Assembly (NCBI RefSeq): GCF_050920415.1
Contig: NZ_CP169309.1
DNA from: Escherichia coli
GTDB lineage: Bacteria; Pseudomonadota; Gammaproteobacteria; Enterobacterales; Enterobacteriaceae
Strand: one strand, 5' to 3'
Length of the DNA stretch: 64,000 nt
Below are positions 30,415-52,533 of this stretch, one piece after another. Both the position numbers and the translations under genes were made by a program. A model generated the notes under the pieces. That model was not told the DNA's origin and made no database searches. It was given only the letters and a program-made list of their open reading frames with translations. Each line of letters begins with the position of its first letter. Positions within the stretch are counted from its first letter, which is position 1.

Positions 30415-31268
30415 GCACCATCCTGAAATGGGCGGGAAATAAAACCGCCATTATGTCCGAACTGAAAAAACACCTTCCTGCTGGCCCGCGACTGGTTGAA
30501 CCTTTCGCGGGTTCCTGTGCTGTGATGATGGAGACGGATTACCCCAGCTATCTGGTTGCGGATATTAATCCTGATTTAATCAACCTCTATAAAAAGGTTG
30601 CCGCTGATTGTGAATCGTTTATATCTCGCGCCAGAGTTTTATTTGAGATCGCAAACAGGGAGGTGGCTTATTACAACATAAGGCAGGAGTTTAATTACTC
30701 CACTGAAATTACTGATTTCATGAAAGCGGTATATTTCCTGTATCTCAATCGTCACGGTTACCGTGGTTTATGTCGCTATAACAAGAGCGGGCATTTCAAC
30801 ATTCCCTACGGTAATTATAAAAATCCGTATTTCCCTGAAAAAGAAATTCGCGCATTTGCAGAAAAAGCCCAGCGGGCAACGTTTATCTGCGCCAGCTTTG
30901 ATGAAACGCTGGCGATGTTGAAGGCGGGGGATGTGGTGTATTGCGATCCGCCGTATGACGGCACGTTTTCCGGTTATCACACTGACGGCTTCACTGAAGA
31001 TGACCAGTATCACCTGGCATCCGTTCTTGAACATCGGTCATCAGAAGGACATCCGGTCATTGTTTCTAACAGTGACACATCCCTGATCCGTTCGCTGTAT
31101 CGCAATTTTACTCACCACTACATCAAGGCAAAACGCAACATCGGTGTGGCAGCTGGCGAGGGTAAATCAGCAACAGAAATCATTGCTGTTTCCGGGCCGC
31201 GCTGCTGGGTGGGATTTGATTATTCGCGTGGCGTGGACAGTTCTGCCGTGTACGGAGTACGTGCATGA
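30411..31268 (+). CDS. dam: DNA adenine methyltransferase (Dam-type, N6-adenine)
   Basis: ORF from [38 protein letters not shown]... with catalytic DPPY motif (VYCDPPYDG); ATGA overlap with the preceding gene. Confidence 0.85.
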
Positions 31269-33679
31269 GTCATGCCGATATGAACAACTGCTGCGGCTTT
31301 AACGAGGCTACCGCAGCATTCTCATGGAACAGCCCGAAAAAGGCCATTAACCCTTATCTGGACCCGGCGGAAGTTGCGCCGGTTTCTGCGCTTTCAAACC
31401 TGATCACTCTGTACGCTGCCGATAACGAGCAGGAACAACTGCGCCGTGAGGCACTGAGTGATCAGGTCTGGGAGCGTTATTTCTTTAATGAATCCCGTGA
31501 TCCTGTCCAGCGCGAAATGGAGCAGGATAAGCTAATTAGCCGGGCAAAGCTGGCGCATGAGCAGCAGCGTTTTAATCCAGACATGGTCATTCTGGCGGAT
31601 GTCAACGCCCAGCCTTCCCATATCAGCAAGCCGCTGATGCAACGTATTAAATACTTCAGCAACCTGGGCAGGCCAAAGGCTTATTCCCGCTATTTGCGTG
31701 AGACGATTAAGCCATGCTTGGAACGACTGGAGCATGTACGCGACAGCCAGCTATCTGCATCTTTTCGTTTTATGGCAAGCCATGAAGGGCTGGACGGTCT
31801 GCTGATCCTGCCTGAAATGAGTCAGGATCAGGTGAAACGCCTGTCCACCCTTGTCGCTGCGCATATGAGCATGTGTCTTGATGCCGCTTGTGGTGATTTG
31901 TACGCCTCCGATGATGTTAAGCCGGAAGAAATCCGCAAGACATGGGAAAAGGTGGCAGCAGAAACCCTGCGACTGGATGTCATACCGCCTGCGTTTGAGC
32001 AACTCCGCCGGAAAAGAAACCGCCGCAAACCTGTGCCCTATGAACTCATTCCGGGTTCGCTGGCGCGTATGCTGTGCGCCGACTGGTGGTATCGGAAATT
32101 ATGGAAGATGCGTTGCGAATGGCGGGAAGAGCAGTTGCGTGCTGTCTGTCTGGTCAGCAAAAAAGCATCTCCCTATGTCAGCTATGAAGCCGTGATGCAT
32201 AAACGTGAGCAGCGCCGTAAGTCGCTGGAGTTTTTCCGTTCTCATGAACTGGTGAACGAAGACGGCGACACGCTGGACATGGAGGATGTGGTAAACGCCA
32301 GCAGCAGCAACCCTGCGCATCGCCGCAATGAGATGATGGCCTGTGTTAAAGGCCTGGAGCTTATCGCGGAAATACGCGGTGACTGCGCCGTTTTCTACAC
32401 CATCACCTGTCCGTCACGTTTCCATTCCACGCTAAATAACGGCAGGCCCAACCCGACCTGGACAAATGCGACGGTAAGACAAAGCAGTGATTATCTGGTT
32501 GGCATGTTTGCTGCATTTCGTAAGGCGATGCACAAAGCCGGATTGCGCTGGTATGGCGTGCGGGTGGCTGAGCCGCATCATGACGGTACAGTTCACTGGC
32601 ACCTGTTGTGTTTTATGCGCAAAAAAGATCGCCGCGCCATTACTGCTTTGTTGCGTAAGTTTGCCATTCGTGAAGACCGCGAGGAGCTGGGGAATAACAC
32701 GGGACCACGCTTTAAGTCTGAGTTGATTAACCCGCGCAAAGGAACGCCGACAAGCTACATCGCGAAATATATCAGTAAGAACATTGACGGGCGTGGTCTG
32801 GCTGGCGAGATCAGCAAGGAAACGGGTAAATCCCTGCGTGATAACGCTGAATACGTGAATGCCTGGGCGTCTCTGCATCGTGTTCAGCAATTCCGCTTCT
32901 TTGGCATTCCGGGGCGTCAGGCTTACCGTGAACTGCGATTGCTGGCTGGTCAGGCGGCAAGGCAACAGGGTGACAAAAAAGCAGGTGCGCCGGTACTGGA
33001 TAACCCGCGCCTTGATGCAATCCTGGCTGCTGCTGATGCTGGTTGTTTTGCCACCTACATCATGAAGCAGGGCGGCGTACTGGTTCCCCGTAAATATCAC
33101 CTCATCAGAACCGCTTATGAAATCAACGAAGAGCCAACCGCCTATGGCGATCACGGTATTCGTATTTATGGCATCTGGTCACCCATTGCAGAGGGCAAGA
33201 TCTGCACTCATGCAGTGAAGTGGAAAATGGTTCGTAAGGCCGTTGACATTCAGGAGGCGGCAGCCGACCAGGGCGCTTGCGCCCCTTGGACTCGTGGCAA
33301 TAACTGTCCCCTTGCTGAAAATTTGAACCAACAGGAGAAAGATAAATCAGCTGATGGGGGCCCCAGAACGGACTTTACCCGCATGGATGACAAGGAGTTG
33401 CACGATTACCTGCACAGTATGAACAAAAAGGGGCGCCGGGAACTGGCTGCAAGGTTACGTCTGGTGAAACCGAAACGGCGTAGAGACTACAAACAGCGAA
33501 TTACAGACCATCAACGACAGCAGCTCGTCTATGAACTGAAATCCAGAGGATTTGATGGCAGCGAGAAAGAGGTCGATTTACTCCTTCGCGGCGGCAGTAT
33601 TCCGTCAGGAGCAGGCCTGCGTATCTTCTATCGGAACCAGCGTTTGCAGGAAGATGATAAGTGGCGGAACCTGTATTAA
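31265..33679 (+). CDS. A: Replication initiation protein (P2 gpA-like rolling-circle endonuclease)
   Basis: 804-aa ORF in the gpA position of the early operon; size and context match P2 A / 186 A. Confidence 0.8.
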
Positions 33680-34266: not shown

Positions 34267-34379
34267 TTTTGTCAATAGACGCTTGTTTTTACTAATCAAA
34301 AAGGGTTACATATGAGTGAGAGGCGATGTCAATCAGATATCGCCTTGTTTTTTGTCAAGAAAAGAATAATAGGCTAAAA

Positions 34380-35057
34380 ATGAAAATTAATAATGTAGCG
34401 TTACCAATATCTCTTGCTGTAATCCTAACTGGTTGCGTGCCACATGCTTCTAACCGAAATATCACTGCTATTGAAGTGGTGAAGCCTGCTATTGGGCAAA
34501 GTGCTACCGCCTACATGGGCGATCCCATTATCACATCTGCTACTGGATTTAAAACGGACGTACTAGAACTTGGTGCGGCTAATGGTGCATTGTCTTCTAT
34601 CGCTGCTGGTACATATTGCAGTGAGGGGAATGGAATTTACCGCAATTATCATAACCCTCAAGCTGTTGCGTTAAAAAATCTCTATGGGCAAATCGGTAAC
34701 TATGTTGATTATGTTAGTTACGATGCTGCAAAAAATGAGATATCACCGCCAAATGGTACTTCTTATACTGCATCAGAAATTTCTATCAAACGTGTTCCTG
34801 ATGGGCTGTGTCGAGTTAGTAACTCATTGGTTAAGACTATCGAATACAATGGAAATGCAGGCGGTGTAATGAAGTTCACCTATCGTGAATTTGCAAACGA
34901 TATGGCTCGTGCAGCATTTACAACAGATTTTTCTGTAGATTCTAAGGGAAGTGACGTTATCGCTTACAAAGGTGCCAAGTTCAAAGTGAACAAGGCTGAT
35001 AACTCGTCTATTTCTTATACAATTATTTCTGGCTTTGACAAGGCTGTCACGTTCTAG
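34380..35057 (+). CDS. Predicted lipoprotein (cargo gene between replication module and cos)
   Basis: Start at MKINNVALPISLAVILTGC... with lipobox LTGC; 225 aa; followed by a terminator. Confidence 0.65.
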   Translation: MKINNVALPISLAVILTGCVPHASNRNITAIEVVKPAIGQSATAYMGDPIITSATGFKTDVLELGAANGALSSIAAGTYCSEGNGIYRNYHNPQAVALKNLYGQIGNYVDYVSYDAAKNEISPPNGTSYTASEISIKRVPDGLCRVSNSLVKTIEYNGNAGGVMKFTYREFANDMARAAFTTDFSVDSKGSDVIAYKGAKFKVNKADNSSISYTIISGFDKAVTF

Positions 35058-35160
35058 GTTTCACGCTTACTGAGTATGTTACGATTTTGCACATTCTGCA
35101 TAAGCGCGCATGTCTATGCTGCATGAGATCGCATGATCGTTTGAGGATCTTTTGTGTTAA

Positions 35161-35186
35161 GGCCCGCCAGTTCTGGCGGGCTTTTG
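35161..35186 (+). terminator. Rho-independent terminator after lipoprotein gene
   Basis: ggcccgccagttctggcgggcttttg: stem gcccgccag/ctggcgggc plus T-run. Confidence 0.55.
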
Positions 35187-35230
35187 CGTAGATCATGCAG
35201 GTGCATGAAAACCACTACATAAAGCGGGCA

Positions 35231-35249
35231 GGCGTGGCGGGGATACGAG
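35231..35249. other. Candidate phage cos site
   Basis: GGCGTGGCGGGGATACGAG resembles my recollection of the P2/186 19-nt cohesive end (GGCG[A/T]GGCGGGGAAAGCA-); memory-based, not verified. Confidence 0.3.
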
Positions 35250-35374
35250 CGCGCGCTCATGGTTGAATTAATGAAATTATGGTGTTAAATAGGCTAGCTT
35301 TTTAAGTCGTGAATATTTGTCAACGCCAAGATTATTGGCCGTTTTTCGCCATTTTTAATGTCCGCTATTGGTCA

Positions 35375-36171
<797 letters not shown>

Positions 36172-36174
36172 AAC

Positions 36175-37338
36175 AGCTCCTCATAGGCACTCAACGGCCT
36201 GTGTTCCACCTGACTGACCTGCTGCCAGAGTGGGGCGTGATGCTCCGGCACGGTCTGCCAGCCGTATACAGCCGAACAGAGACGGTGCGATGCTACCTGT
36301 TGCTCATTACTGTAGATCCGCAGTTCATCATCCAGCGAGATCCGTATTGATACCGGCTGGCCACACAGGCTTTCCGGCACGCTGTAACGGTTCCCGCCAA
36401 CCTCGATATAGCCATCCCAGGAGACATGACGGATATCGAAGTAGCTGGTATCGAAGTCCGTACCTGGCAGCGCCTGCAGATGCACCTGTTCCTGCGTGAA
36501 GCGCTGTTCCGGTGTCTGCCTGAACTGGCGAAGTCCCGCCTGTCGGCAACGTCAGCCATCCACTGCTCCAGTAGCTGATTAACATGGGCGAAGCTGTCGA
36601 ACCGGCGGTACCGGACGAAGAAGTTTTCCTTGAGGTATTTCACCATCCGTTCCACCTTACCTTTGGTTCTGGCCCTTCGTGGACGGCAGGCCCGTGGCAG
36701 GAAGCCATAGTGATGGCCAGCAGCAGGAACCCGGAGTTGAACACCACCTTCCCGTTGTTATTTTTCAGCACTGCGGCTTTCTGGTTATCGACCAGCACGG
36801 TTTTCACGCTGCCGCCGAAGTAGCGAAAGGCGCGGACCAGTGACTCATAGGTATGTTCAGCATCCTGCTTTGGTGCCGCGAAGACATGGAAGCGACGTGA
36901 GAACCCCAGCGTATTAACCGCGAAGTTAACCCTGCATCGTTGCCCGGCAACCTCAGCCTCAACTTCTCCCCAGTCATGCTGTAGCTGGTAACCGGGCTGA
37001 GTTTCGAAGCGAACCGTTTTCTTCGATGGCCGCATCTTACGTTTGGGCTGGATGTAGTAACGCAACATGGAACGGCCACCGGTATAACCCATCGCTTTGA
37101 TTTCCGCCAGGATGACCTCGCCGTTCCAGACATTCTCAGCCAGACGCATGTCGATATAGTCCATGAACGGCTTGAGTTTGGCCATTTTGTGGCGTGTTTT
37201 TCTGGCCGGAGGTTCCGGGTATTTCAGGTACCGTCTGACAGTCCGCTCAGAGCAACCAACCTGAGTGGCAATATCAACAATATACGCACCTTGCTGGCGC
37301 ATTTGCTTTATCATGTAAAAGTCCTCTCTGCTCAGCAT
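36175..37338 (-). pseudogene. istA: IS21-family transposase IstA, frameshifted
   Basis: N-terminal 232-aa fragment (36640..37338, HTH region MIKQMRQQGAYIVDIATQVGCSERTVRRYL) followed by C-terminal pieces in other frames (36168..36655). Confidence 0.7.
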
Positions 37339-37485
37339 GAGTGTTCCCTTTGTGGTGTAGGAACCTTAAGGAAACAACATGTTGGGTGGAGCGGACAATC
37401 CAAATGGTGAATTACTGTCTTATATCATTGGCGCTGACATATTCAATTTTTCAACTCATTTTTTTCATAGGGAGGAGTAATTGAC

Positions 37486-38184
37486 ATGGTTATGTTAGTG
37501 GATGACTGTCCACGATGTGGATCACAAAAAATAGCGTTTGATGTTAATGGGCTGAATTGCACTAGGGTTTACAATGCATTGGGCGGGGGTAAAACATACG
37601 AGTACGAGGTCTATTGTGTTTGCCGAGAGTGTCATAAAACGACAATGTTTCTTTGCAGACCTTTAACGAAAAATAAAACTTTAGATGGCTATAATTGGGA
37701 AAGTGGAATATTCGGCTTAAAGGAAGTTGCAGAGGTTGTTAGGCCTATATCACCGGCAGACTTAGCAGTAGAGGAGCCACCAGAGTTCTTACCTGAGCAT
37801 ATCAATAGTGCATATGAGGAAGGGGCGAAATGTTTGGCTATAGGTTGTTATAATGCAGCAGCAACCATGTTTAGGCTTTGCCTTGATTATGCCACAAAAG
37901 GACTTCTTCCTGATGGGGAGCAAGGGCCTGCGCAAAAAATAAGGAGAAGCCTAGGGTTAAGAATGGAGTGGTTATTTGATAATCATCTACTGCCTGAAGC
38001 TTTAAGGGAACTAGCTGAATGCGTTAAAGATGACGGAAATGATGGAGCGCATGAAGGTATTTTGGATAAAGCTGCTGCTGAGGATCTTGAAGATTTTACC
38101 TATCTTTTTTTAGAACGGCTTTACACTGAACCTCAACGCCTTATCGAAGCCAAGACAAGGCGTGAACAAAGAAGAAACAAATAA
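37486..38184 (+). CDS. Hypothetical protein with N-terminal zinc-ribbon (CPRCG...CRECH) and C-terminal DUF4145-like helical domain
   Basis: 232-aa ORF with GGGAGGAG RBS; Cys4 cluster in first 50 aa; C-terminal region resembles DUF4145 (domain assignment from memory, unverified). Confidence 0.6.
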   Translation: MVMLVDDCPRCGSQKIAFDVNGLNCTRVYNALGGGKTYEYEVYCVCRECHKTTMFLCRPLTKNKTLDGYNWESGIFGLKEVAEVVRPISPADLAVEEPPEFLPEHINSAYEEGAKCLAIGCYNAAATMFRLCLDYATKGLLPDGEQGPAQKIRRSLGLRMEWLFDNHLLPEALRELAECVKDDGNDGAHEGILDKAAAEDLEDFTYLFLERLYTEPQRLIEAKTRREQRRNK

Positions 38185-38192
38185 GTTCGGAA

Positions 38193-39230
38193 TTATTCTT
38201 CTGAAAGAATATAGGGCGTAAATTTAATCACTTCTTCGCCCAGCCAGTCGTTCAGCTCTTGTAGCCTTTTTTGCAAGGGAGTTAATTCATTACGTACAAA
38301 TACGCGACTGGCCTTCTCCACATCCCCAAACCCTCCAACATTATTAGGCATAATCCCCATCATTTGCGGCGGCACGCGGTGCGCAGCCATCATGTCGTCG
38401 CGGCTGACATTTTTGATATTCAAAAACTCATCCTTCGCCGCGACTTCTGACAATGGGATGATCTGAAGCCCGTCTTTTTTGCCGTTAGGCGAGTACATAA
38501 ACAGGTTGCGGAAGTTGCCTGGACCTTTGGCGCTTTTCATCGCATTGCGGAGGTTGTTCACATCCTCCTGGTTTTGCGCGGCATCGGTCATGTACATGAT
38601 AAAGCCCGCATGACTGCCGTTAATGTAATACTTGCGACGGAACAGCGTGGCGGACTCGTTGAGCAGGGCTGACGGAATGGCAGAAAGATAACCGGGCAGG
38701 CCGTAGATCTCCTGATTAATATCCGGTTCCATCAGATGAAAAATGCTGCCTTTCGTGAACTGATACGGCTGGGTTGTCATACCGTATTGCACAAACCAGT
38801 AGGTATCCAGGTCTAACCCGCGTCGGGTGTATTTTGCCAGTGCAGGCTCAAGGGCGATAACTTCACCGAAGCGGTTCGTGCGTTTCTCCAGGTAGGCGTT
38901 ACCAAAAACCAGATAGTCCTGCACAAAACGCGAAAAAGCCTGCTGGCTGAGCAGCGGGTGAGGGATGTAGGTGCTGGTCAGAATGTTGCACTTTACTGCA
39001 ATCGGGGAACTATGATGCACGGCAGCGCGGAAGGTGCGCGCCAGTCCGTCAAAGCTGACGGGCGGCTCATACCAGCGGTCCATCTGTACGCATTCCACAT
39101 AATCCAGCAGTTCTCGGCGGTCCAGAACAGGAACGGGATCGCCGAAGCTGAATGCTTCGGCTGTAGTTTGACTTTTAAGCTGGATCTGTTTCGTCGCCGC
39201 AGCGCGGTTCTTCTTACTCTTTCCCATCAA
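38193..39230 (-). CDS. Q: Portal protein (P2 gpQ-like)
   Basis: 345-aa ORF; size and position (leftward, upstream of terminase P, divergent from scaffold O) match P2 Q. Confidence 0.85.
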   Translation of the reverse strand: MMGKSKKNRAAATKQIQLKSQTTAEAFSFGDPVPVLDRRELLDYVECVQMDRWYEPPVSFDGLARTFRAAVHHSSPIAVKCNILTSTYIPHPLLSQQAFSRFVQDYLVFGNAYLEKRTNRFGEVIALEPALAKYTRRGLDLDTYWFVQYGMTTQPYQFTKGSIFHLMEPDINQEIYGLPGYLSAIPSALLNESATLFRRKYYINGSHAGFIMYMTDAAQNQEDVNNLRNAMKSAKGPGNFRNLFMYSPNGKKDGLQIIPLSEVAAKDEFLNIKNVSRDDMMAAHRVPPQMMGIMPNNVGGFGDVEKASRVFVRNELTPLQKRLQELNDWLGEEVIKFTPYILSEE

Positions 39231-40993
39231 AAAATCTCCACAATATTGCTGGTATTGGCGGATTCGCCCTGCAGCGGTTCGTTAAACAGTGCGTGCATCG
39301 TTGCCCAGGCCAGATCGGCGTGGCTGGCTTCTTCGCTGCGGCTGGCTTCATAGGTCGGGCGGTTGCCACTGGCGGTGGTGGCGCGACGGATTGCCATAAA
39401 GGACTGCGCTATGTCGGTGTGTCCGGCGTCAAACTCCAGACGGCGGTGGCTGATAATGTCGTAGGCCTTGAGTACCAGGGCGTTTTTAACGTTGGGGTTG
39501 TAGACAAACTCCCGGACGGCAGGAAAAAACGCTTTCACGTTCTCGTAAACCCCGTGACCAACGCCGGTTGAGTCGATACCGATATAGGTCACGTTGTACT
39601 GTTCGGTCAGTTTTTTGATGGCGTCAGCCTGGGCGCGGAAGTCCATTCCGCGCCACTGGTGACGCTCAAGAATGCGGAACTTACCGCCCGGCACGGCTGG
39701 CGGCGCCACCACCACGCATCCGGCGCTGTCGCCGTTCTGCGTACCTTTCGCCGGGTCATATCCGATCCACACTTCGCGCCAGCCAAACGGGCGCAGGGCC
39801 AGTGCATGAAAGTCGGTCCAGACTTCCCAACTGTCCACCATGCACGCCTGCAGCTCGCTGAGCGGGAACACGGACGCGAGATCGTCCACGAACTCGCACA
39901 TCAGCAGGTTCTGGTATTCGTCCGGGCTGTACTCCATGCGCAACTGGTCAAGGTCGAACAGGTTACAGCCGCCGCGCACCGCATCTTCCACGGTGACTAT
40001 CTGGCGGTACTGCCCGTCTGCGCACAGCAGGCCGGGGGCCAGATTGCTGTGGGACAGGTCGATGTCCACCTTATCGGCTTTGTTGCGCCCTCGGTTGAAC
40101 AGCGCACCGGACCAGAACGGATAAGCACTGTGTGTCAGGCTGGATGGCGTGGAAAAATAGGTTTGTCGCCATTTTTTGTGAATAGCCATACCGGAAGCCA
40201 CTTTGCGCAGCTCCTGGAATTTCGGTATCCAGAAATATTCATCCAGATACAGGTTGCCGTGGTAACTCTGGGCCGTGCGGGCATTGGTGCCGAGGAAGTA
40301 AAGCGTGGCCCCGTTAGGAAGCACCATCGGATCGCCTTTCAGCTCCACCTCGACTTCTTTGGCGAAGTCGATGATGTACTGCTTAAAGACGTGGGCCTGT
40401 GCCTTACTGGCGGAAAGGAAAATCTGGTTACGTCCGGTCAGCAGGGCGTCAATCAGGGCTTCACGGGCAAAGTAAAAGGTCGCGCCGATCTGGCGAGACT
40501 TCAGCAGGTTGCGGATGCGATTGGTTTTTCCGGCTTCCCACCAGTGGCGCTGGTAGTTGAACATGGAGGAATGGAAGATTTCTTCCAGCTTCTCAATCTG
40601 TTCATCGGTGAAAACATTCTTTTCCGGCTGACGGCGCGGCCCTTTGTTGCGGTTGGCGACGTTAGGGTTTAAGTCGGCTTCGTTGCCGCCATTGTTAAAC
40701 TTGCCGATCCGCGCGTGGCGCTCCGACTGGCGCGCCAGCAGGTCAATTTCTTTGAAATCTTTCCCTTCTTTGTGCTCCTTCATAATGAGCTGGCAGTAGC
40801 GGGCGGCGGTGGTGAGCTGCATCTGATCCAGCGGCCCATAGTCACCCCACTTGTCGCGTTTTTTCCAGCTGTGAACGGTTGCAACTTTCTCGCCCAGCAT
40901 TTCAGCAATGCGGGCTACGCGGTATCCCTGAAAGTACAGCAGCATGGCCTGCCGACGGGGATCGAGATCTGCGGGTGTCAGTGTGGTGTTCAT
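39227..40993 (-). CDS. P: Terminase large (ATPase) subunit (P2 gpP-like)
   Basis: 588-aa ORF overlapping Q by 4 nt; terminase-like architecture. Confidence 0.85.
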   Translation of the reverse strand: MNTTLTPADLDPRRQAMLLYFQGYRVARIAEMLGEKVATVHSWKKRDKWGDYGPLDQMQLTTAARYCQLIMKEHKEGKDFKEIDLLARQSERHARIGKFNNGGNEADLNPNVANRNKGPRRQPEKNVFTDEQIEKLEEIFHSSMFNYQRHWWEAGKTNRIRNLLKSRQIGATFYFAREALIDALLTGRNQIFLSASKAQAHVFKQYIIDFAKEVEVELKGDPMVLPNGATLYFLGTNARTAQSYHGNLYLDEYFWIPKFQELRKVASGMAIHKKWRQTYFSTPSSLTHSAYPFWSGALFNRGRNKADKVDIDLSHSNLAPGLLCADGQYRQIVTVEDAVRGGCNLFDLDQLRMEYSPDEYQNLLMCEFVDDLASVFPLSELQACMVDSWEVWTDFHALALRPFGWREVWIGYDPAKGTQNGDSAGCVVVAPPAVPGGKFRILERHQWRGMDFRAQADAIKKLTEQYNVTYIGIDSTGVGHGVYENVKAFFPAVREFVYNPNVKNALVLKAYDIISHRRLEFDAGHTDIAQSFMAIRRATTASGNRPTYEASRSEEASHADLAWATMHALFNEPLQGESANTSNIVEIF

Positions 40994-43047: not shown

Positions 43048-43698
43048 ATGAGCCTGAGTCCCGCACGGCAGCATCGCCTGCGCGTTCAGGCTGAACAGGC
43101 CGCCCGCGAGGGCGGCAGCGTTCGCCACGCGTCGGGCTATGACCTGATGCTGCTGCAACTGGCAGAAGACCGCCGCCGTCTCAAGGGCGTTCAGTCCACG
43201 GTCAAAAAAGCGGAAATCAAGGTGGAGCTGCTGCCGAAATACGCCGCCTGGGCGGAGGGTGTCCTGGCTGCCGGAGGCGCTCAACAGGATGACGTGCTGA
43301 TGTACGTGATGCTGTGGCGCATTGATGCCGAAGATTATGTCGGAGCGCTGGAGATCGGGCGTCATGCCCTGCGTCATGGCTGGGTGATGCCGCTGGGTAA
43401 CCGCAACGTGCAGACCGTGCTGGCAGAGGAAATGGCAGACGCAGCGCAGAGCGCAATGCTTGCCACTACCGGCTTTGATGTCGATCTGCTGCTGCAGACG
43501 CTGGAGCTGACAGACGGTCTGGATATGCCGGACCAGTCACGGGCGCGTCTGCATAAAGCGATTGGCGCTGTCCTGAGTGAAAGTAATCCGGCTTCCGCCC
43601 TTAATCATCTCAACCATGCGTTACAGCTCGATCCCCGCTGTGGCGTGAAAAAAGACAAACAGCAGCTGGAGCGCAGACTGCGCAATGACAGCCGCTGA
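43048..43698 (+). CDS. M: Terminase small/endonuclease subunit (P2 gpM-like)
   Basis: 216-aa ORF after major capsid gene. Confidence 0.8.
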   Translation: MSLSPARQHRLRVQAEQAAREGGSVRHASGYDLMLLQLAEDRRRLKGVQSTVKKAEIKVELLPKYAAWAEGVLAAGGAQQDDVLMYVMLWRIDAEDYVGALEIGRHALRHGWVMPLGNRNVQTVLAEEMADAAQSAMLATTGFDVDLLLQTLELTDGLDMPDQSRARLHKAIGAVLSESNPASALNHLNHALQLDPRCGVKKDKQQLERRLRNDSR

Positions 43699-49632: not shown

Positions 49633-51026
49633 GCACAAAATTTTATACCCTGCTGACGGATATTGGCGCGGCGAAACTTGCCAGCGCCGCCGCGCTCGGT
49701 GTGCCGCTAAAAATTACCCATATGGCGGTGGGCGATGGCGGCGGAACATTGCCAACGCCGGACGCCAAGCAGACAGCATTGGTAAATGAGAAACGCCGGG
49801 CTGCGCTGAATATGCTCTATATCGACCCGCAGAACAGCAGCCAGATTATTGCTGAACAGGTGATCCCTGAAAACGAGGGCGGTTGGTGGATACGTGAAGT
49901 GGGCCTGTTTGATGAGTCCGGGGCATTGATTGCCGTGGGCAACTGCCCGGAAAGCTATAAGCCGCAACTGGCTGAAGGCAGCGGGCGTACCCAGACCGTG
50001 CGCATGGTGCTGATTACCAGCAGCACGGACAATATCACCCTGAAAATCGACCCTGCCGTAGTGCTGGCAACCCGCAAGTATGTGGATGACAAGGTACTGG
50101 AGCTGAAGGTGTACGTGGATGATCAGATGGCAAAACATCTTGCCGCACCGGACCCGCATTCACAGTATGCACCCAAAGAAAGTCCGACGTTTACCGGGAC
50201 ACCAAAAGCGCCAACTCCAGCGGCAGGGAATAACACCACGCAGGTTGCGACCACCGCGTTTGTTCAGGCGGCACTGACGGCTCTTATTAATGGTGCGCCA
50301 GCCACGCTGGACACGCTGAAAGAAATAGCCGCAGCCATTAACAATGATCCGAATTTCAGTACCACCATTAACAATGCGCTGGCACTGAAAGCGCCGTTGT
50401 CGAGTCCGGCACTCACCGGAACGCCAACAGCCCCCACTGCTGCACAGTCGGTCAACAATACACAGATTGCCACCACGGCTTTTGTGAAATCGGCGATTGC
50501 AGCAATGGTAGGTTCTGCACCTGCGGCACTGGATACACTGAACGAACTGGCGTCGGCGTTGGGGAATGATCCGAACTTTGCCACGACAATGCTTAATGCG
50601 CTGGCAGGTAAACAACCGCTGGACAATACGCTGACTAATTTGAGTGGAAAGGATGTCGCTGGTCTTCTCGCATACCTTGGTTTGGGGGAATTGGCTCTGG
50701 CTGGCGCAACAACCGGCGCTATGTTGGTGAATGGGTATGTAGCAATTCCATTAATTATTTCTGGCGTTCGGAGACCACTTATTATCCAGTGGGGAGTGGG
50801 GCAGTTTGGGGGAAGTCTGGGGGATGATGCGGGATATTTAAACAATTTCCCTTTCGCTTTTCCGTCGGCGTGCTACGTGATGGTTGCCAGCCACGTGGGG
50901 CATACACCTTCGGGTGCCGGAATACTATCTGCTTCCGCAATCACAAAAAGCGGCTTTCGTGGTTTTTCCAGCGTAGTGACTGCCGCAAATCCTGTATCGG
51001 GCTGTTATGTTGCTATAGGAGGGTGA
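49629..51026 (+). CDS. H: Tail fibre protein (gpH-like), C-terminal part encoded within invertible segment
   Basis: 465-aa ORF; conserved N-terminal tail-fibre region, crossover site at 50665-50690 inside the gene. Confidence 0.85.
   Translation: MSTKFYTLLTDIGAAKLASAAALGVPLKITHMAVGDGGGTLPTPDAKQTALVNEKRRAALNMLYIDPQNSSQIIAEQVIPENEGGWWIREVGLFDESGALIAVGNCPESYKPQLAEGSGRTQTVRMVLITSSTDNITLKIDPAVVLATRKYVDDKVLELKVYVDDQMAKHLAAPDPHSQYAPKESPTFTGTPKAPTPAAGNNTTQVATTAFVQAALTALINGAPATLDTLKEIAAAINNDPNFSTTINNALALKAPLSSPALTGTPTAPTAAQSVNNTQIATTAFVKSAIAAMVGSAPAALDTLNELASALGNDPNFATTMLNALAGKQPLDNTLTNLSGKDVAGLLAYLGLGELALAGATTGAMLVNGYVAIPLIISGVRRPLIIQWGVGQFGGSLGDDAGYLNNFPFAFPSACYVMVASHVGHTPSGAGILSASAITKSGFRGFSSVVTAANPVSGCYVAIGG
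50665..50690. promoter_or_regulatory. Left recombination site of invertible segment (gix/pix-like)
   Basis: TTCTCGCATACCTTGGTTTGGGGGAA matches the reverse complement of the right site in about 20 of 26 positions. Confidence 0.55.
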
Positions 51027-51027
51027 T

Positions 51028-51462
51028 GTGTTTTTTAGTCCATCTTTAAATATTTTTGTGAATCCTGCGCTTAAGGATGACTACATCAATGTAAATTCAT
51101 GGCCAGATGATGCTGTTGAAGTTGATGAGCAGGTGTATATTGAGTTTTCCGGATTACCGCCGAAAGGAAAAATCCGTATCGCTGGGGAAAATGGTTTTCC
51201 TGCATGGTCTGAAATTCCACCACCAACGCATGAGGAACAGATTGCCGCAGCCGAATTGAAAAAACAGCAATTGATTAATCAGTCCAACGAATATATGAAT
51301 ACCAAGCAATGGCCTGGTAAAGCGGCTATTGGTCGTCTGAAAGGTGAGGAACTGGCGCAATATAATTTGTGGCTGGATTATCTGGACGCACTGGAACTGG
51401 TTGATACCTCCAGTGCTCCAGATATTGAATGGCCTACGCCTCCGGCAGTTCAGGCCAGATGA
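51028..51462 (+). CDS. G: Tail fibre assembly chaperone (gpG/U-like), current orientation
   Basis: 144-aa ORF directly after H. Confidence 0.7.
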   Translation: MFFSPSLNIFVNPALKDDYINVNSWPDDAVEVDEQVYIEFSGLPPKGKIRIAGENGFPAWSEIPPPTHEEQIAAAELKKQQLINQSNEYMNTKQWPGKAAIGRLKGEELAQYNLWLDYLDALELVDTSSAPDIEWPTPPAVQAR

Positions 51463-52027
51463 CATCCGGCGCGGTGCTCGTATCTGTTGCCGTCACCGCG
51501 TCAATGTAATCAAGCACGGCGTTAAGCCGGGTGGTTTCTGCCTGCGTCAGCTTCCGCCCGGCCTGTAATTTCAGCTGAATCAGACTGATGGAAGCCATTG
51601 CAGCATCAATCAGTGACTGGCGCTGTGCTTCTGCCGCTTCTACTGCGGCACCGTGTTGTGCCTCAGTATCTGTCACCCATTTCTCACCATCCCATTTATC
51701 GTATGGCGTTAACGGTGAAAGCGTGACATAACCGTCTTTGATGGCACCGATATAATCCACTGTAACAGCAGCACCATTTTCGATTGAGTAAACAGTCTCA
51801 TTGCGATGGTCTTCTTCATGGCTCCATCCCTTACCTGTAAATACTGCCACTCTTCCCGGAATGTTTTCGCCAGGGTCAATACCAGTTGAACAGGCGGGCA
51901 TACTTACGCCAGTATTAATATATTCATCAGACCAGCCCGTATACTCAGATGTTTCAGCATCATAATAAAAACAACGCATATCACCCGGCACTGTAGCCAG
52001 CCCATTTTCATCAAAAACAGGTTTCAT
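51434..52027 (-). CDS. Alternative tail fibre assembly chaperone (inverted-orientation copy)
   Basis: 197-aa minus-strand ORF inside the invertible segment, downstream of the alternative fibre tip. Confidence 0.65.
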   Translation of the reverse strand: MKPVFDENGLATVPGDMRCFYYDAETSEYTGWSDEYINTGVSMPACSTGIDPGENIPGRVAVFTGKGWSHEEDHRNETVYSIENGAAVTVDYIGAIKDGYVTLSPLTPYDKWDGEKWVTDTEAQHGAAVEAAEAQRQSLIDAAMASISLIQLKLQAGRKLTQAETTRLNAVLDYIDAVTATDTSTAPDVIWPELPEA

Positions 52028-52533
52028 TATGCAGCCCTCACAATATAATTAAAGGCGATGTTACGTGGACGGTTTTCATTAGCTGTTGGCACGACACGAG
52101 AGGCGTCGAATCCAAGGTCATCGGTTTTGTCTATAGTAGTTGTGTTATTCGGCATTCTCGCTGATCGTGTTCCTGCATCGTAAAAAGCCCCTCTGATTGC
52201 ATCAAAAGACATACCGATCCCGCCATCTGCGAATCCCTCAATATTTCTTATTGCATCCCCCTGTGAAGATAATAATTGTCGCCCGGCATCCACTCCACGT
52301 CCGTCATCCCAGCCACGAATAAATTCACCGCGTAAATCAGGCAATTTATTTTTCGGATAAACCTTTGCCAGTTCCGGGTATTCTTCAGCAGAAAAAGCCG
52401 CACCGTTGCATTTCAGCCAGCCAGTAGGCGGTGTGGCTGAAGGCCACGGAACAGGCACACCAACGGGTAATGCTGAACCTTCTCCCAAACCAACGTTTAT
52501 GAAAATGCAGAGATAACGGCTAACTGGCATCAT
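52027..52533 (-). CDS. Alternative tail fibre C-terminal segment (expressed only after inversion)
   Basis: 168-aa minus-strand ORF that reads through the right crossover site; would fuse to the constant part of H after inversion. Confidence 0.6.
   Translation of the reverse strand: MMPVSRYLCIFINVGLGEGSALPVGVPVPWPSATPPTGWLKCNGAAFSAEEYPELAKVYPKNKLPDLRGEFIRGWDDGRGVDAGRQLLSSQGDAIRNIEGFADGGIGMSFDAIRGAFYDAGTRSARMPNNTTTIDKTDDLGFDASRVVPTANENRPRNIAFNYIVRAA
52480..52505. promoter_or_regulatory. Right recombination site of invertible segment (gix/pix-like)
   Basis: TTCTCCCAAACCAACGTTTATGAAAA, inverted relative to the left site. Confidence 0.55.

What the first reader, a model, noticed from the sequence alone, without database searches (positions are those of the whole stretch)
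35231..35249. Candidate cos site lies between lipoprotein gene and IS21, not adjacent to the portal gene
GGCGTGGCGGGGATACGAG resembles my recollection of the 19-nt cohesive ends of P2/186. If this is cos, then the IS21 element and the zinc-ribbon/DUF4145 gene sit between cos and Q, an atypical arrangement; there are only 8 bp of non-coding DNA directly next to Q.
Basis: inference. Interest (0 to 1): 0.35.

Follow-up and report, generated by a model that had tools for sequence, protein, structure and literature searches.

The report
Known P2-type phage cos site
The 19-base sequence is the genuine DNA-packaging cut site (cos) of a Fels-2/Cartapus-type P2-family prophage; cargo genes between cos and the portal gene are the normal, already described layout for this lineage, and only the decayed IS21-family insertion next to it is peculiar to this genome.

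Summary
GGCGTGGCGGGGATACGAG is at 35231-35249. It is the homologue of the annotated cohesive ends of P2 (14/19 identical) and 186/PsP3 (15/19). It is identical to the cos annotated at base 1 of Salmonella phage SEN8. The whole 55-bp P2/P4 cos core is present at 35202-35256. In 112 distinct viral contigs carrying this cos, conservation forms a sharp block from -126 to +26 (window 35105-35256), with unrelated DNA on both sides.

"Atypical arrangement" is not supported for the cargo gene. Fels-2, RE-2010, SEN8, Cartapus (E. coli LF82) and E. coli RM10740 all carry cargo between cos and Q. In 83 of 89 viral contigs with this cos, Q lies more than 300 bp away (median 1541 bp). The cos-Q interval has been described as a cargo hotspot since 1996-1999.

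With the IS removed, the window is 875/876 identical to the start of phage Cartapus (cos, DUF4145, portal). The IS is an ISEc62-like IS21-family copy (35318-37439) with a 4-bp TATT duplication and three frameshifting 1-nt deletions. It sits 61 bp outside the conserved cos block and 46 bp upstream of the DUF4145 gene. The junction was found in no complete E. coli genome. Whether the 35.9-kb prophage still packages is untested.

Verdict: real, ordinary, already known.

The parts
35231..35249 (+). 19-nt cohesive-end sequence (cosN equivalent), GGCGTGGCGGGGATACGAG. The predicted nicks are 5' of 35231 on the top strand and after 35249 on the bottom strand, by homology with P2/186.
   Evidence: It aligns with the annotated cos of P2, 186, PsP3 and EtG. 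It is identical to the SEN8 cos at record base 1.
35202..35256 (+). 55-bp P2/P4-type cos core: TGCATGAAAACC...AAGCGGGCA, then the 19-mer, then CGCGCGC.
   Evidence: Ungapped alignment with P2, P4, 186, SEN8, Fels-2, RE-2010 and RM10740. The 55-bp core is described in PMC3931495 and PMC5694545, both citing Ziermann and Calendar 1990.
35105..35256 (+). Full conserved cos module (about 152 bp, -126 to +26). It has (T)GCAT boxes at 35108-35112, 35120-35124, 35130-35134 and 35202-35206. This is the presumed terminase recognition region.
   Evidence: Per-column conservation over 112 distinct IMG/VR loci is 0.86-1.0 inside the block and about 0.35-0.4 outside it. The boxes sit at the same offsets in P2, 186, P4, pro483 and Yersinia 201.16.
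35159..35186 (+). GC-rich hairpin followed by a T run, inside the cos module. It is a likely rho-independent terminator of the upstream accessory gene.
   Evidence: fold. The position is conserved in Fels-2, SEN8 and the IMG/VR consensus.
35314..35317 (.). Left copy of the 4-bp target-site duplication, TATT.
   Evidence: Cartapus has a single TATT at the empty site.
35318..37439 (-). ISEc62-like IS21-family element, 2122 bp, with TG...CA ends. istA and istB are on the minus strand. Three 1-nt deletions (near 35829, 36533 and 36714) frameshift both genes.
37440..37443 (.). Right copy of the target-site duplication, TATT.
37486..38184 (+). Cargo gene encoding a 232-aa Zn-ribbon + DUF4145 (HEPN-like) protein. 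It is a candidate anti-phage gene.
   Evidence: Pfam DUF4145, E 4.5e-7. PADLOC PD-T7-4, E 1.2e-6. The same gene is in Cartapus, LF82 and RM10740. DUF4145 is listed in the P2 hotspot tables of PMC9122126.
38193..39230 (-). Portal gene (P2 gpQ homologue).
   Evidence: phrog_68 portal, E 3e-177. Synteny with Cartapus and Fels-2.
39227..40993 (-). Terminase large/ATPase subunit gene (P2 gpP homologue), intact.
   Evidence: RefSeq homologues.
43048..43698 (+). Terminase small/endonuclease subunit gene (P2 gpM homologue), intact.
   Evidence: phrog_74, E 1.9e-87. LF82 annotation 'terminase endonuclease subunit'.
34326..35057 (+). Accessory gene upstream of cos, a putative lipoprotein with lipobox LTGC. 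It is the homologue of Fels-2 STM2726.
   Evidence: (sequence), and phrog_1353 of unknown function.
25105..25150 (.). attL copy of the 46-bp att repeat (the 3' end of ssrA).
61026..61071 (.). attR copy of the 46-bp att repeat, inside the tmRNA gene (61027-61389, minus strand). The excised genome would be 35,921 bp.

Best explanation
35231-35249 is the cohesive-end site (cos) of a complete Fels-2/Cartapus-type P2-family prophage integrated at ssrA (25105-61071).

By homology with P2 and 186, the phage terminase (gpM homologue at 43048-43698, gpP homologue at 39227-40993) recognises a conserved module of about 150 bp (35105-35256). It then makes two nicks 19 nt apart, giving 5'-protruding GGCGTGGCGGGGATACGAG ends. 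The conserved elements outside the 19-mer lie almost entirely on the replication-gene (A) side: (T)GCAT boxes at -124, -111, -101 and -29. Only a GCGCGC box (+20 to +26) lies on the portal side.

DNA to the right of +26 is a free cargo slot in this lineage. Here it holds a Zn-ribbon/DUF4145 gene, as in phage Cartapus. An ISEc62-like IS21-family copy later inserted at a TATT, 61 bp outside the module and 46 bp upstream of the cargo gene.

Shown: homology, module borders, empty site, IS anatomy. Inferred: the exact nick positions, which terminase subunit binds the boxes, and that the IS leaves cos usable.
For: - **Homology of the 19-mer and flanks.** They align without gaps to the annotated cos of P2, 186 and P4. 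Identity within the 19-mer is 15/19 to 186 and 14/19 to P2.
- **Same 19-mer in relatives.** Fels-2, RE-2010 and RM10740 carry it, and SEN8's record starts at it with the annotation 'cos site' (PMC5427200). A near-identical variant, GGCGTGGCGGGGAGACGAG, is taken as the cos of Smp131.
- **Uniqueness.** There is one match in the window against 0.04 expected.
- **Module borders.** 120 IMG/VR loci share the 26-mer. Conservation is 0.86-1.0 from -126 to +26 and at a background level of about 0.35-0.4 outside. 98 distinct 30-mers follow the GCGCGC box.
- **Conserved boxes.** TGCAT boxes sit at the same offsets in P2, 186, P4, pro483 and Yersinia 201.16.
- **Cargo between cos and Q is the norm.** In 83 of 89 loci the distance exceeds 300 bp (median 1541, maximum 3370).
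- **Empty site.** The window without the IS is 875/876 identical to Cartapus 1-876. The late region is 99.9% identical to the LF82 prophage.
- **This layout is packaged.** Cartapus yields capsid-protected genomes (3.3e5 genomes/mL by qPCR of virion preparations; PMC9928086). SEN8 is an isolated temperate phage whose DNA was sequenced (PMC5427200).
- **Terminase and portal genes are intact**.
Against: - No phage with this exact 19-mer has had its ends mapped experimentally, as far as I could find. SEN8 and Cartapus were annotated by homology.
- Positions 14, 16, 17 and 19 of the 19-mer differ from 186, and positions 5, 14, 16, 17 and 19 from P2.
- The IS raises the genome to 35,921 bp. That is 107% of P2 (33,593 bp) and 2% above SEN8 (35,203 bp). 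This may approach head capacity.
- Cosmid work suggests that flanks longer than the 55-bp core improve P2 packaging (PMC9594776), so an effect of the IS 68 bp from the 19-mer cannot be excluded.
- I could not read Ziermann and Calendar 1990 to check the minimal functional fragment.
Confidence: 0.9

Rival explanations
1. The site is a genuine cos, but the prophage can no longer be packaged. Either the IS insertion adds 2.1 kb and pushes the cos-to-cos length beyond head capacity, or it removes right-flank DNA that efficient terminase action needs. On this reading cos is a relic in a grounded prophage.
For: The excised genome would be 35,921 bp against 33,795 bp without the IS. P2 is 33,593 bp and Cartapus 33,368 bp. 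Increased genome size is cited as contributing to loss of P2 progeny in an engineered lysogen (PMC9942202). Longer cos flanks improve cosmid transduction. The IS copy has accumulated three frameshifts, so it cannot supply its own transposase and is unlikely to excise.
Against: The IS lies 61 bp outside the sharply bounded conserved block. DNA right of +26 is unrelated among P2, P4, Fels-2, RE-2010, SEN8 and Cartapus, yet P4 is packaged by the P2 terminase. Natural cos-Q intervals reach 3370 bp, against 2943 bp here. SEN8 (35,203 bp) is a viable relative only 2% shorter. All packaging and structural genes look intact, and the late region is 99.9% identical to Cartapus.
Confidence: 0.2
2. The resemblance to the P2/186 cohesive ends is chance similarity in a GC-rich stretch, and the real packaging site is elsewhere, for example next to Q.
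For: None, beyond the fact that only 14-15 of 19 bases match P2/186.
Against: The flanks are conserved as well as the 19-mer. The match is unique in the window. Only 8 bp separate the DUF4145 gene from Q, which leaves no room for a cos there. The block is conserved at the same genomic position in more than 100 related viral contigs.
Confidence: 0.01
3. The cos belongs to a separate P4-like satellite or a prophage remnant abutting the P2-like prophage, not to the prophage that carries Q and P.
For: P4-like satellites share the cos core with their helpers and also carry a hotspot next to cos.
Against: The window is collinear with the LF82 Cartapus prophage from att to att, apart from the divergent blocks reported (int-proximal end, accessory region upstream of cos, tail-fibre region). 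The A-dinI-accessory genes sit on one side of cos and DUF4145-Q-P on the other. There is a single pair of 46-bp att repeats. No P4-type genes are adjacent.
Confidence: 0.01

Closest known systems
cos of Salmonella phage SEN8 and the Fels-2 / RE-2010 group (Felsduovirus)
   Same: The 19-mer is identical, and so are the flanks over the core. The position is the same: after the dinI/accessory genes and before the cargo and Q. SEN8 has this 19-mer annotated as cos at base 1 (PMC5427200).
   Different: The cargo to the right of cos differs: a 1.7-kb gene in Fels-2, an Abi gene in RE-2010, and a hypothetical gene plus an HNH gene in SEN8. None of them has an IS.
Escherichia phage Cartapus (Elveevirus; prophage 4 of E. 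coli LF82) and the RM10740 prophage
   Same: The layout is the same: cos, DUF4145, portal. The window without the IS is 875/876 identical over the first 876 bp of Cartapus. The late region is 99.9% identical. The integration site, ssrA, is the same.
   Different: The window carries the 2122-bp ISEc62-like insertion plus a TATT duplication. The early region and int are more divergent (87-94% identity). The accessory genes upstream of cos differ from LF82.
P2 and 186/PsP3 cos (19-nt 5' cohesive ends; 55-bp core shared with P4)
   Same: The first 13 nt are as in 186. The AAGCGGGC(N) left flank and GCGCGC right flank are shared. TGCAT boxes sit at -124, -111, -101 and -29. Homologous gpM and gpP terminase genes are present.
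   Different: The last third of the 19-mer is ATACGAG instead of AAAGCA(C/T). In P2/186/PsP3, Q starts 168-179 bp from cos with only a terminator between them. Here there are 817 bp of cargo, or 2943 bp with the IS.
cos-Q cargo slot / cos-proximal hotspot of P2-like phages (retrons Ec67/Ec86 in 186-like prophages, phiCTX ctx, phiRSY1 ORF1-4; Rousset et al. 2022 defence hotspot)
   Same: Foreign genes are inserted directly beside cos, between cos and the portal gene. The cargo is a candidate defence gene.
   Different: None in principle. This is one more instance, with an IS added.
ISEc62 (IS21 family)
   Same: 98-99.8% nucleotide identity over the full length. It has the istA-istB organisation, TG/CA termini and a 4-bp duplication.
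   Different: It is 2122 bp instead of 2124-2125 bp. Three 1-nt deletions frameshift istA (twice) and istB (once).

Membership tests
P2-family cos site | GC-rich 19-nt cohesive-end sequence of the form GGCG(A/T)GGCGGGG... | tested here: met
   35231-35249 is 15/19 identical to 186/PsP3 and 14/19 to P2. It is identical to the annotated SEN8 cos.
P2-family cos site | The 55-bp core shared by P2 and P4: about 29 nt to the left and about 7 nt to the right of the 19-mer. | tested here: met
   The ungapped alignment shows TGCAT.AAAACC...AAG.GGGC. and .GCGCGC conserved in P2, P4, 186 and the window. The 55-bp core is cited.
P2-family cos site | Location between the A-side accessory region and the Q-P packaging genes of a P2-like genome. 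| tested here: met
   The order is A (31265-33679), accessory genes, cos, cargo, Q, P. It is collinear with Fels-2 and Cartapus.
P2-family cos site | Cognate terminase genes (gpM and gpP homologues) present. | tested here: met
   phrog_74 (E 1.9e-87) and the terminase large subunit phrogs (E 6e-161). Both ORFs are full length.
P2-family cos site | Staggered cleavage giving 19-nt 5' overhangs in virion DNA. | not testable with these tools
   This needs sequencing of virion DNA ends. Published annotations for this 19-mer (SEN8, Cartapus) rest on homology.
IS21 family insertion sequence | istA (HTH + rve transposase) followed by istB (IstB_IS21 ATPase), TG...CA termini with repeated terminal motifs, and a short target duplication. 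| tested here: met
   Pfam rve, Mu-transpos_C_2 and IstB_IS21. RefSeq calls the closest copies ISEc62. The ends and the TATT duplication are confirmed against the empty site.
IS21 family insertion sequence | Intact, translatable istA and istB (an autonomous element). | tested here: not met
   Three 1-nt deletions relative to an intact 2125-bp copy split istA into three frames and istB into two.
PD-T7-4-like single-gene defence (Zn finger + HEPN) | Sequence match to the PD-T7-4 profile and a Zn-finger + HEPN architecture. | tested here: inconclusive
   The PADLOC PD-T7-4 hit is weak (E 1.2e-6, 26 bits, residues 36-200). A CxxC...CxxC motif and DUF4145 are present. PD-T7-4 is described as HEPN + Zn finger. 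No functional test was done.

The most novel reading that the evidence does not exclude
The packaging signal of the whole P2/186/P4/Fels-2 group may be a roughly 150-bp module. Its recognition elements would be phased (T)GCAT boxes at -124, -111, -101 and -29, all on the side away from the head genes. Its right edge (+26) would act as a precise joint for cargo exchange. This layout and its sharp borders may not have been spelled out before. In this genome, an IS landing just beyond that edge would also cut the Zn-ribbon/HEPN cargo gene off from its upstream DNA (possible promoter at 35263-35291) without harming cos.
Probability: 0.15. Interest if true: 0.3.

Novelty: already known. Interest (0 to 1): 0.08.

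Why it matters
It matters little beyond correct annotation. It fixes the genome ends of this prophage at 35231/35249. It shows that cargo between cos and Q should be expected in Fels-2/Cartapus-type phages and should not be read as a sign of a misplaced cos. It flags one IS insertion that may silence a candidate defence gene and push the genome towards the packaging limit. The sharply bounded cos module (35105-35256) is a practical anchor for finding cargo on both sides of cos in P2-like prophages.

Tried and rejected
- **Junction searches.** I searched for the cos-IS junction in 5,426 complete E. coli genomes. No place covered the junction, and the best hit stops exactly at the IS border. An exact 30-mer search of the GTDB species representatives gave 0 hits. 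The insertion therefore looks strain-specific, but the source genome was not identified.
- **Promoter and terminator scan.** It gave nothing usable for the DUF4145 gene.
- **Rfam.** Only the tmRNA and one tRNA were found in the window, and nothing at cos.
- **Literature.** I tried to read Ziermann and Calendar 1990 and Christie and Calendar 2016 for the minimal functional cos and the packaging direction. Neither is held. Secondary papers give only the '55-bp core'. My recollection of a 125-bp minimal fragment is unverified.
- **Rejected readings.** I rejected a chance match, a second cos next to Q, and a satellite origin (see the rival explanations).
- **Sequencing error in the IS.** I considered whether the IS frameshifts are sequencing errors. 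This is unlikely, because the adjacent 13.3 kb aligns to LF82 at 99.9% with essentially no indels and the deletions are not in long homopolymers.

Full report
**Observation**

The 19-mer GGCGTGGCGGGGATACGAG is at 35231-35249. A degenerate P2/186-type pattern matches once in the window, against 0.04 expected from shuffles.
- a 243-aa ORF with a lipobox ends at 35057;
- an IS21-family element follows cos;
- a Zn-ribbon/DUF4145 gene lies at 37486-38184;
- the portal gene Q lies at 38193-39230 on the minus strand, 8 bp from the DUF4145 stop.

**Is it cos?**

The GenBank records of P2, 186, PsP3 and EtG start at their annotated cohesive ends. These are GGCGAGGCGGGGAAAGCAC for P2 and GGCGTGGCGGGGAAAGCAT for 186/PsP3. 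The window 19-mer shares 15/19 bases with 186 and 14/19 with P2.

The flanks carry more weight than the 19-mer. I rejoined the record ends of P2, 186, P4 and SEN8 and anchored them on the 19-mer. The window aligns without gaps through TGCAT.AAAACC...AAG.GGGC(N), then the 19-mer, then (C/T)GCGCGC. That is 29 + 19 + 7 = 55 bp, window 35202-35256. It matches the '55-bp core' attributed to Ziermann and Calendar 1990 in PMC3931495 and PMC5694545.

The same 19-mer and flanks occur in Fels-2, RE-2010, many Klebsiella P2-like phages and E. coli RM10740. Phage SEN8's record begins at this exact 19-mer, annotated 'putative cos site', and its genome paper quotes the sequence. Smp131 has a one-base variant that its authors take as cos. 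I found no experimental end-mapping for this variant, so all these annotations rest on homology.

**Extent of the signal**

Over 112 distinct sequences anchored on cos, column conservation is 0.86-1.0 from -126 to +26. It falls abruptly to about 0.35-0.4, a background level, on both sides. Positions 0-25 are fixed by the search; the rest of the block is not. 98 different 30-mers follow the GCGCGC box.

The block (window 35105-35256) contains (T)GCAT boxes at -124, -111, -101 and -29. The same boxes lie at the same offsets in P2, 186, P4, pro483 and Yersinia phage 201.16, whose intervening DNA is otherwise unalignable. A GC-rich hairpin with a T run sits at 35159-35186.

I infer that terminase recognition lies almost entirely on the A-gene side of the nicks. 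Only GCGCGC would be required on the portal side.

**Is the arrangement atypical?**

No, as far as the cargo gene is concerned.
- P2, 186, PsP3 and EtG have Q 168-179 bp from cos.
- Fels-2 has a 1.7-kb gene there. RE-2010 has an 'abortive infection protein'. SEN8 has two genes.
- Phage Cartapus (prophage 4 of E. coli LF82) and E. coli RM10740 have exactly cos, DUF4145, portal.
- Among 89 IMG/VR loci with this cos and a detectable Q, the cos-Q distance ranges from 171 to 3370 bp (median 1541). Only 6 are 300 bp or less. Six loci carry a DUF4145 homologue starting about 97-129 bp after the start of the 19-mer, and none has an IS21-family element.

The literature already describes this slot. PMC5694545 cites Dodd and Egan 1996 and Nakayama 1999 for the cos-Q position as a hotspot. 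Rousset et al. 2022 describe the cos-proximal gpA-gpQ region as a defence hotspot, and DUF4145 appears in their arrangement tables.

Cartapus yields capsid-protected genomes at low level (PMC9928086), and SEN8 is an isolated temperate phage whose DNA was sequenced (PMC5427200). The cos-cargo-Q layout is therefore compatible with packaging.

**The IS**

The element spans 35318-37439 (2122 bp). It has TG...CA ends and is flanked by TATT on both sides. Removing it and one TATT gives a sequence 875/876 identical to the first 876 bp of Cartapus, which has a single TATT.

RefSeq annotates the closest copies (98-99.8% identity, 2124-2125 bp) as ISEc62, IS21 family. Relative to an intact copy, the window copy has three 1-nt deletions near 35829, 36533 and 36714. 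These frameshift istB once and istA twice. The neighbouring 13.3 kb aligns to LF82 at 99.9%, so these look like real lesions.

The IS lies 68 bp right of the 19-mer, 61 bp beyond the conserved block and 46 bp upstream of the DUF4145 start codon. It therefore more probably affects expression of the cargo gene than cos itself. This is inference, and the promoter scan was uninformative. No complete E. coli genome and no GTDB representative carries the junction.

**Prophage context**

The window is collinear with the LF82 Cartapus region. A 46-bp direct repeat at 25105-25150 and 61026-61071, the second copy inside ssrA, marks att. The excised genome would be 35,921 bp, or 33,795 bp without the IS. 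For comparison, P2 is 33,593 bp, Cartapus 33,368 bp and SEN8 35,203 bp. The portal gene and both terminase genes are full length. Whether 35.9 kb is still packageable is the main open point, and I treat it as the main rival explanation.

**Cargo gene**

The 232-aa protein has a CxxC...CxxC motif and a DUF4145 domain. It has a weak PADLOC match to PD-T7-4 (E 1.2e-6), which is a defence protein described as HEPN plus Zn finger. It is a candidate defence gene, untested.

**Verdict**

The claimed oddity dissolves, because cargo between cos and Q is the lineage norm and is documented. The only local peculiarity is a decayed IS21-family copy just outside the packaging signal. This is already known biology and of low interest.

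Noticed in passing
window 35107-35206; also L003-L005, L013-L015, L020, L021: (T)GCAT boxes sit at fixed offsets (-124, -111, -101, -29) from the top-strand nick. This holds in P2, 186, P4, pro483, Yersinia 201.16, Fels-2, SEN8 and the window, although the DNA between the boxes is otherwise unalignable. All the boxes are on the A-gene side of cos.
   Followed up: partly
window 35105-35256 versus IMG/VR loci L022-L141: The conserved cos block has razor-sharp borders (-126 and +26), with unrelated DNA on both sides in 112 distinct contigs. Both edges of cos behave as cargo-exchange joints.
   Followed up: yes
window 35829, 36533, 36714: The ISEc62-like copy has three single-base deletions relative to an intact 2125-bp copy. 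They frameshift istB once and istA twice, so the element is probably immobile on its own.
   Followed up: yes
window 35263-35291 and 37440-37485: A possible sigma-70 promoter (TTGAAT-17-TAAATA) for the DUF4145 gene lies left of the IS. The insertion separates it from the gene by 2.1 kb and leaves only 46 bp upstream of the ATG. The scanning tool did not call it.
   Followed up: partly
window 39227-40993 (residues 13-56 of the gpP homologue): The N-terminus of the large terminase matches 'DNA binding protein' and 'terminase small subunit' PHROG families (E 6e-5 to 3e-4). This hints that an HTH in gpP may read the cos boxes.
   Followed up: no
window 35159-35186; same offset in 186, P4, pro483, ENT90 and Yersinia 201.16: A GC-rich hairpin lies at about -72 to -45 inside the cos module of most relatives, but not of P2. 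It could be a terminator shielding cos from early-side transcription or a structural part of the signal.
   Followed up: no
window 34326-35057: The 'lipoprotein' ORF has a classical lipobox (ILTGC) only after an internal Met (MKINNVALPISLAVILTGC). RefSeq starts the RM10740 homologue 54 nt later (678 nt). The family is phrog_1353, of unknown function, with no Pfam hit.
   Followed up: partly
window 11110-26900: The chromosomal flank left of the prophage (glaH/lhgO, ypjA, gapS1 region) is only about 94% identical to the best E. coli complete genomes. The ssrA-smpB side is 99% identical. The host may be a divergent Escherichia lineage, or this flank may be recombinant.
   Followed up: partly
window 50690-52479 and 25151-28568: Two blocks are not shared with Cartapus/LF82. 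One is the tail-fibre/invertase region. The other is the int-proximal end, which includes a 506-aa ORF (25283-26803) next to int, where LF82 has a different 401-aa gene.
   Followed up: no
window 38185-38192: The DUF4145 gene and Q converge with only 8 bp between their stop codons, and no terminator was predicted. P2 and 186 have a tQ/tW terminator downstream of the portal gene.
   Followed up: no
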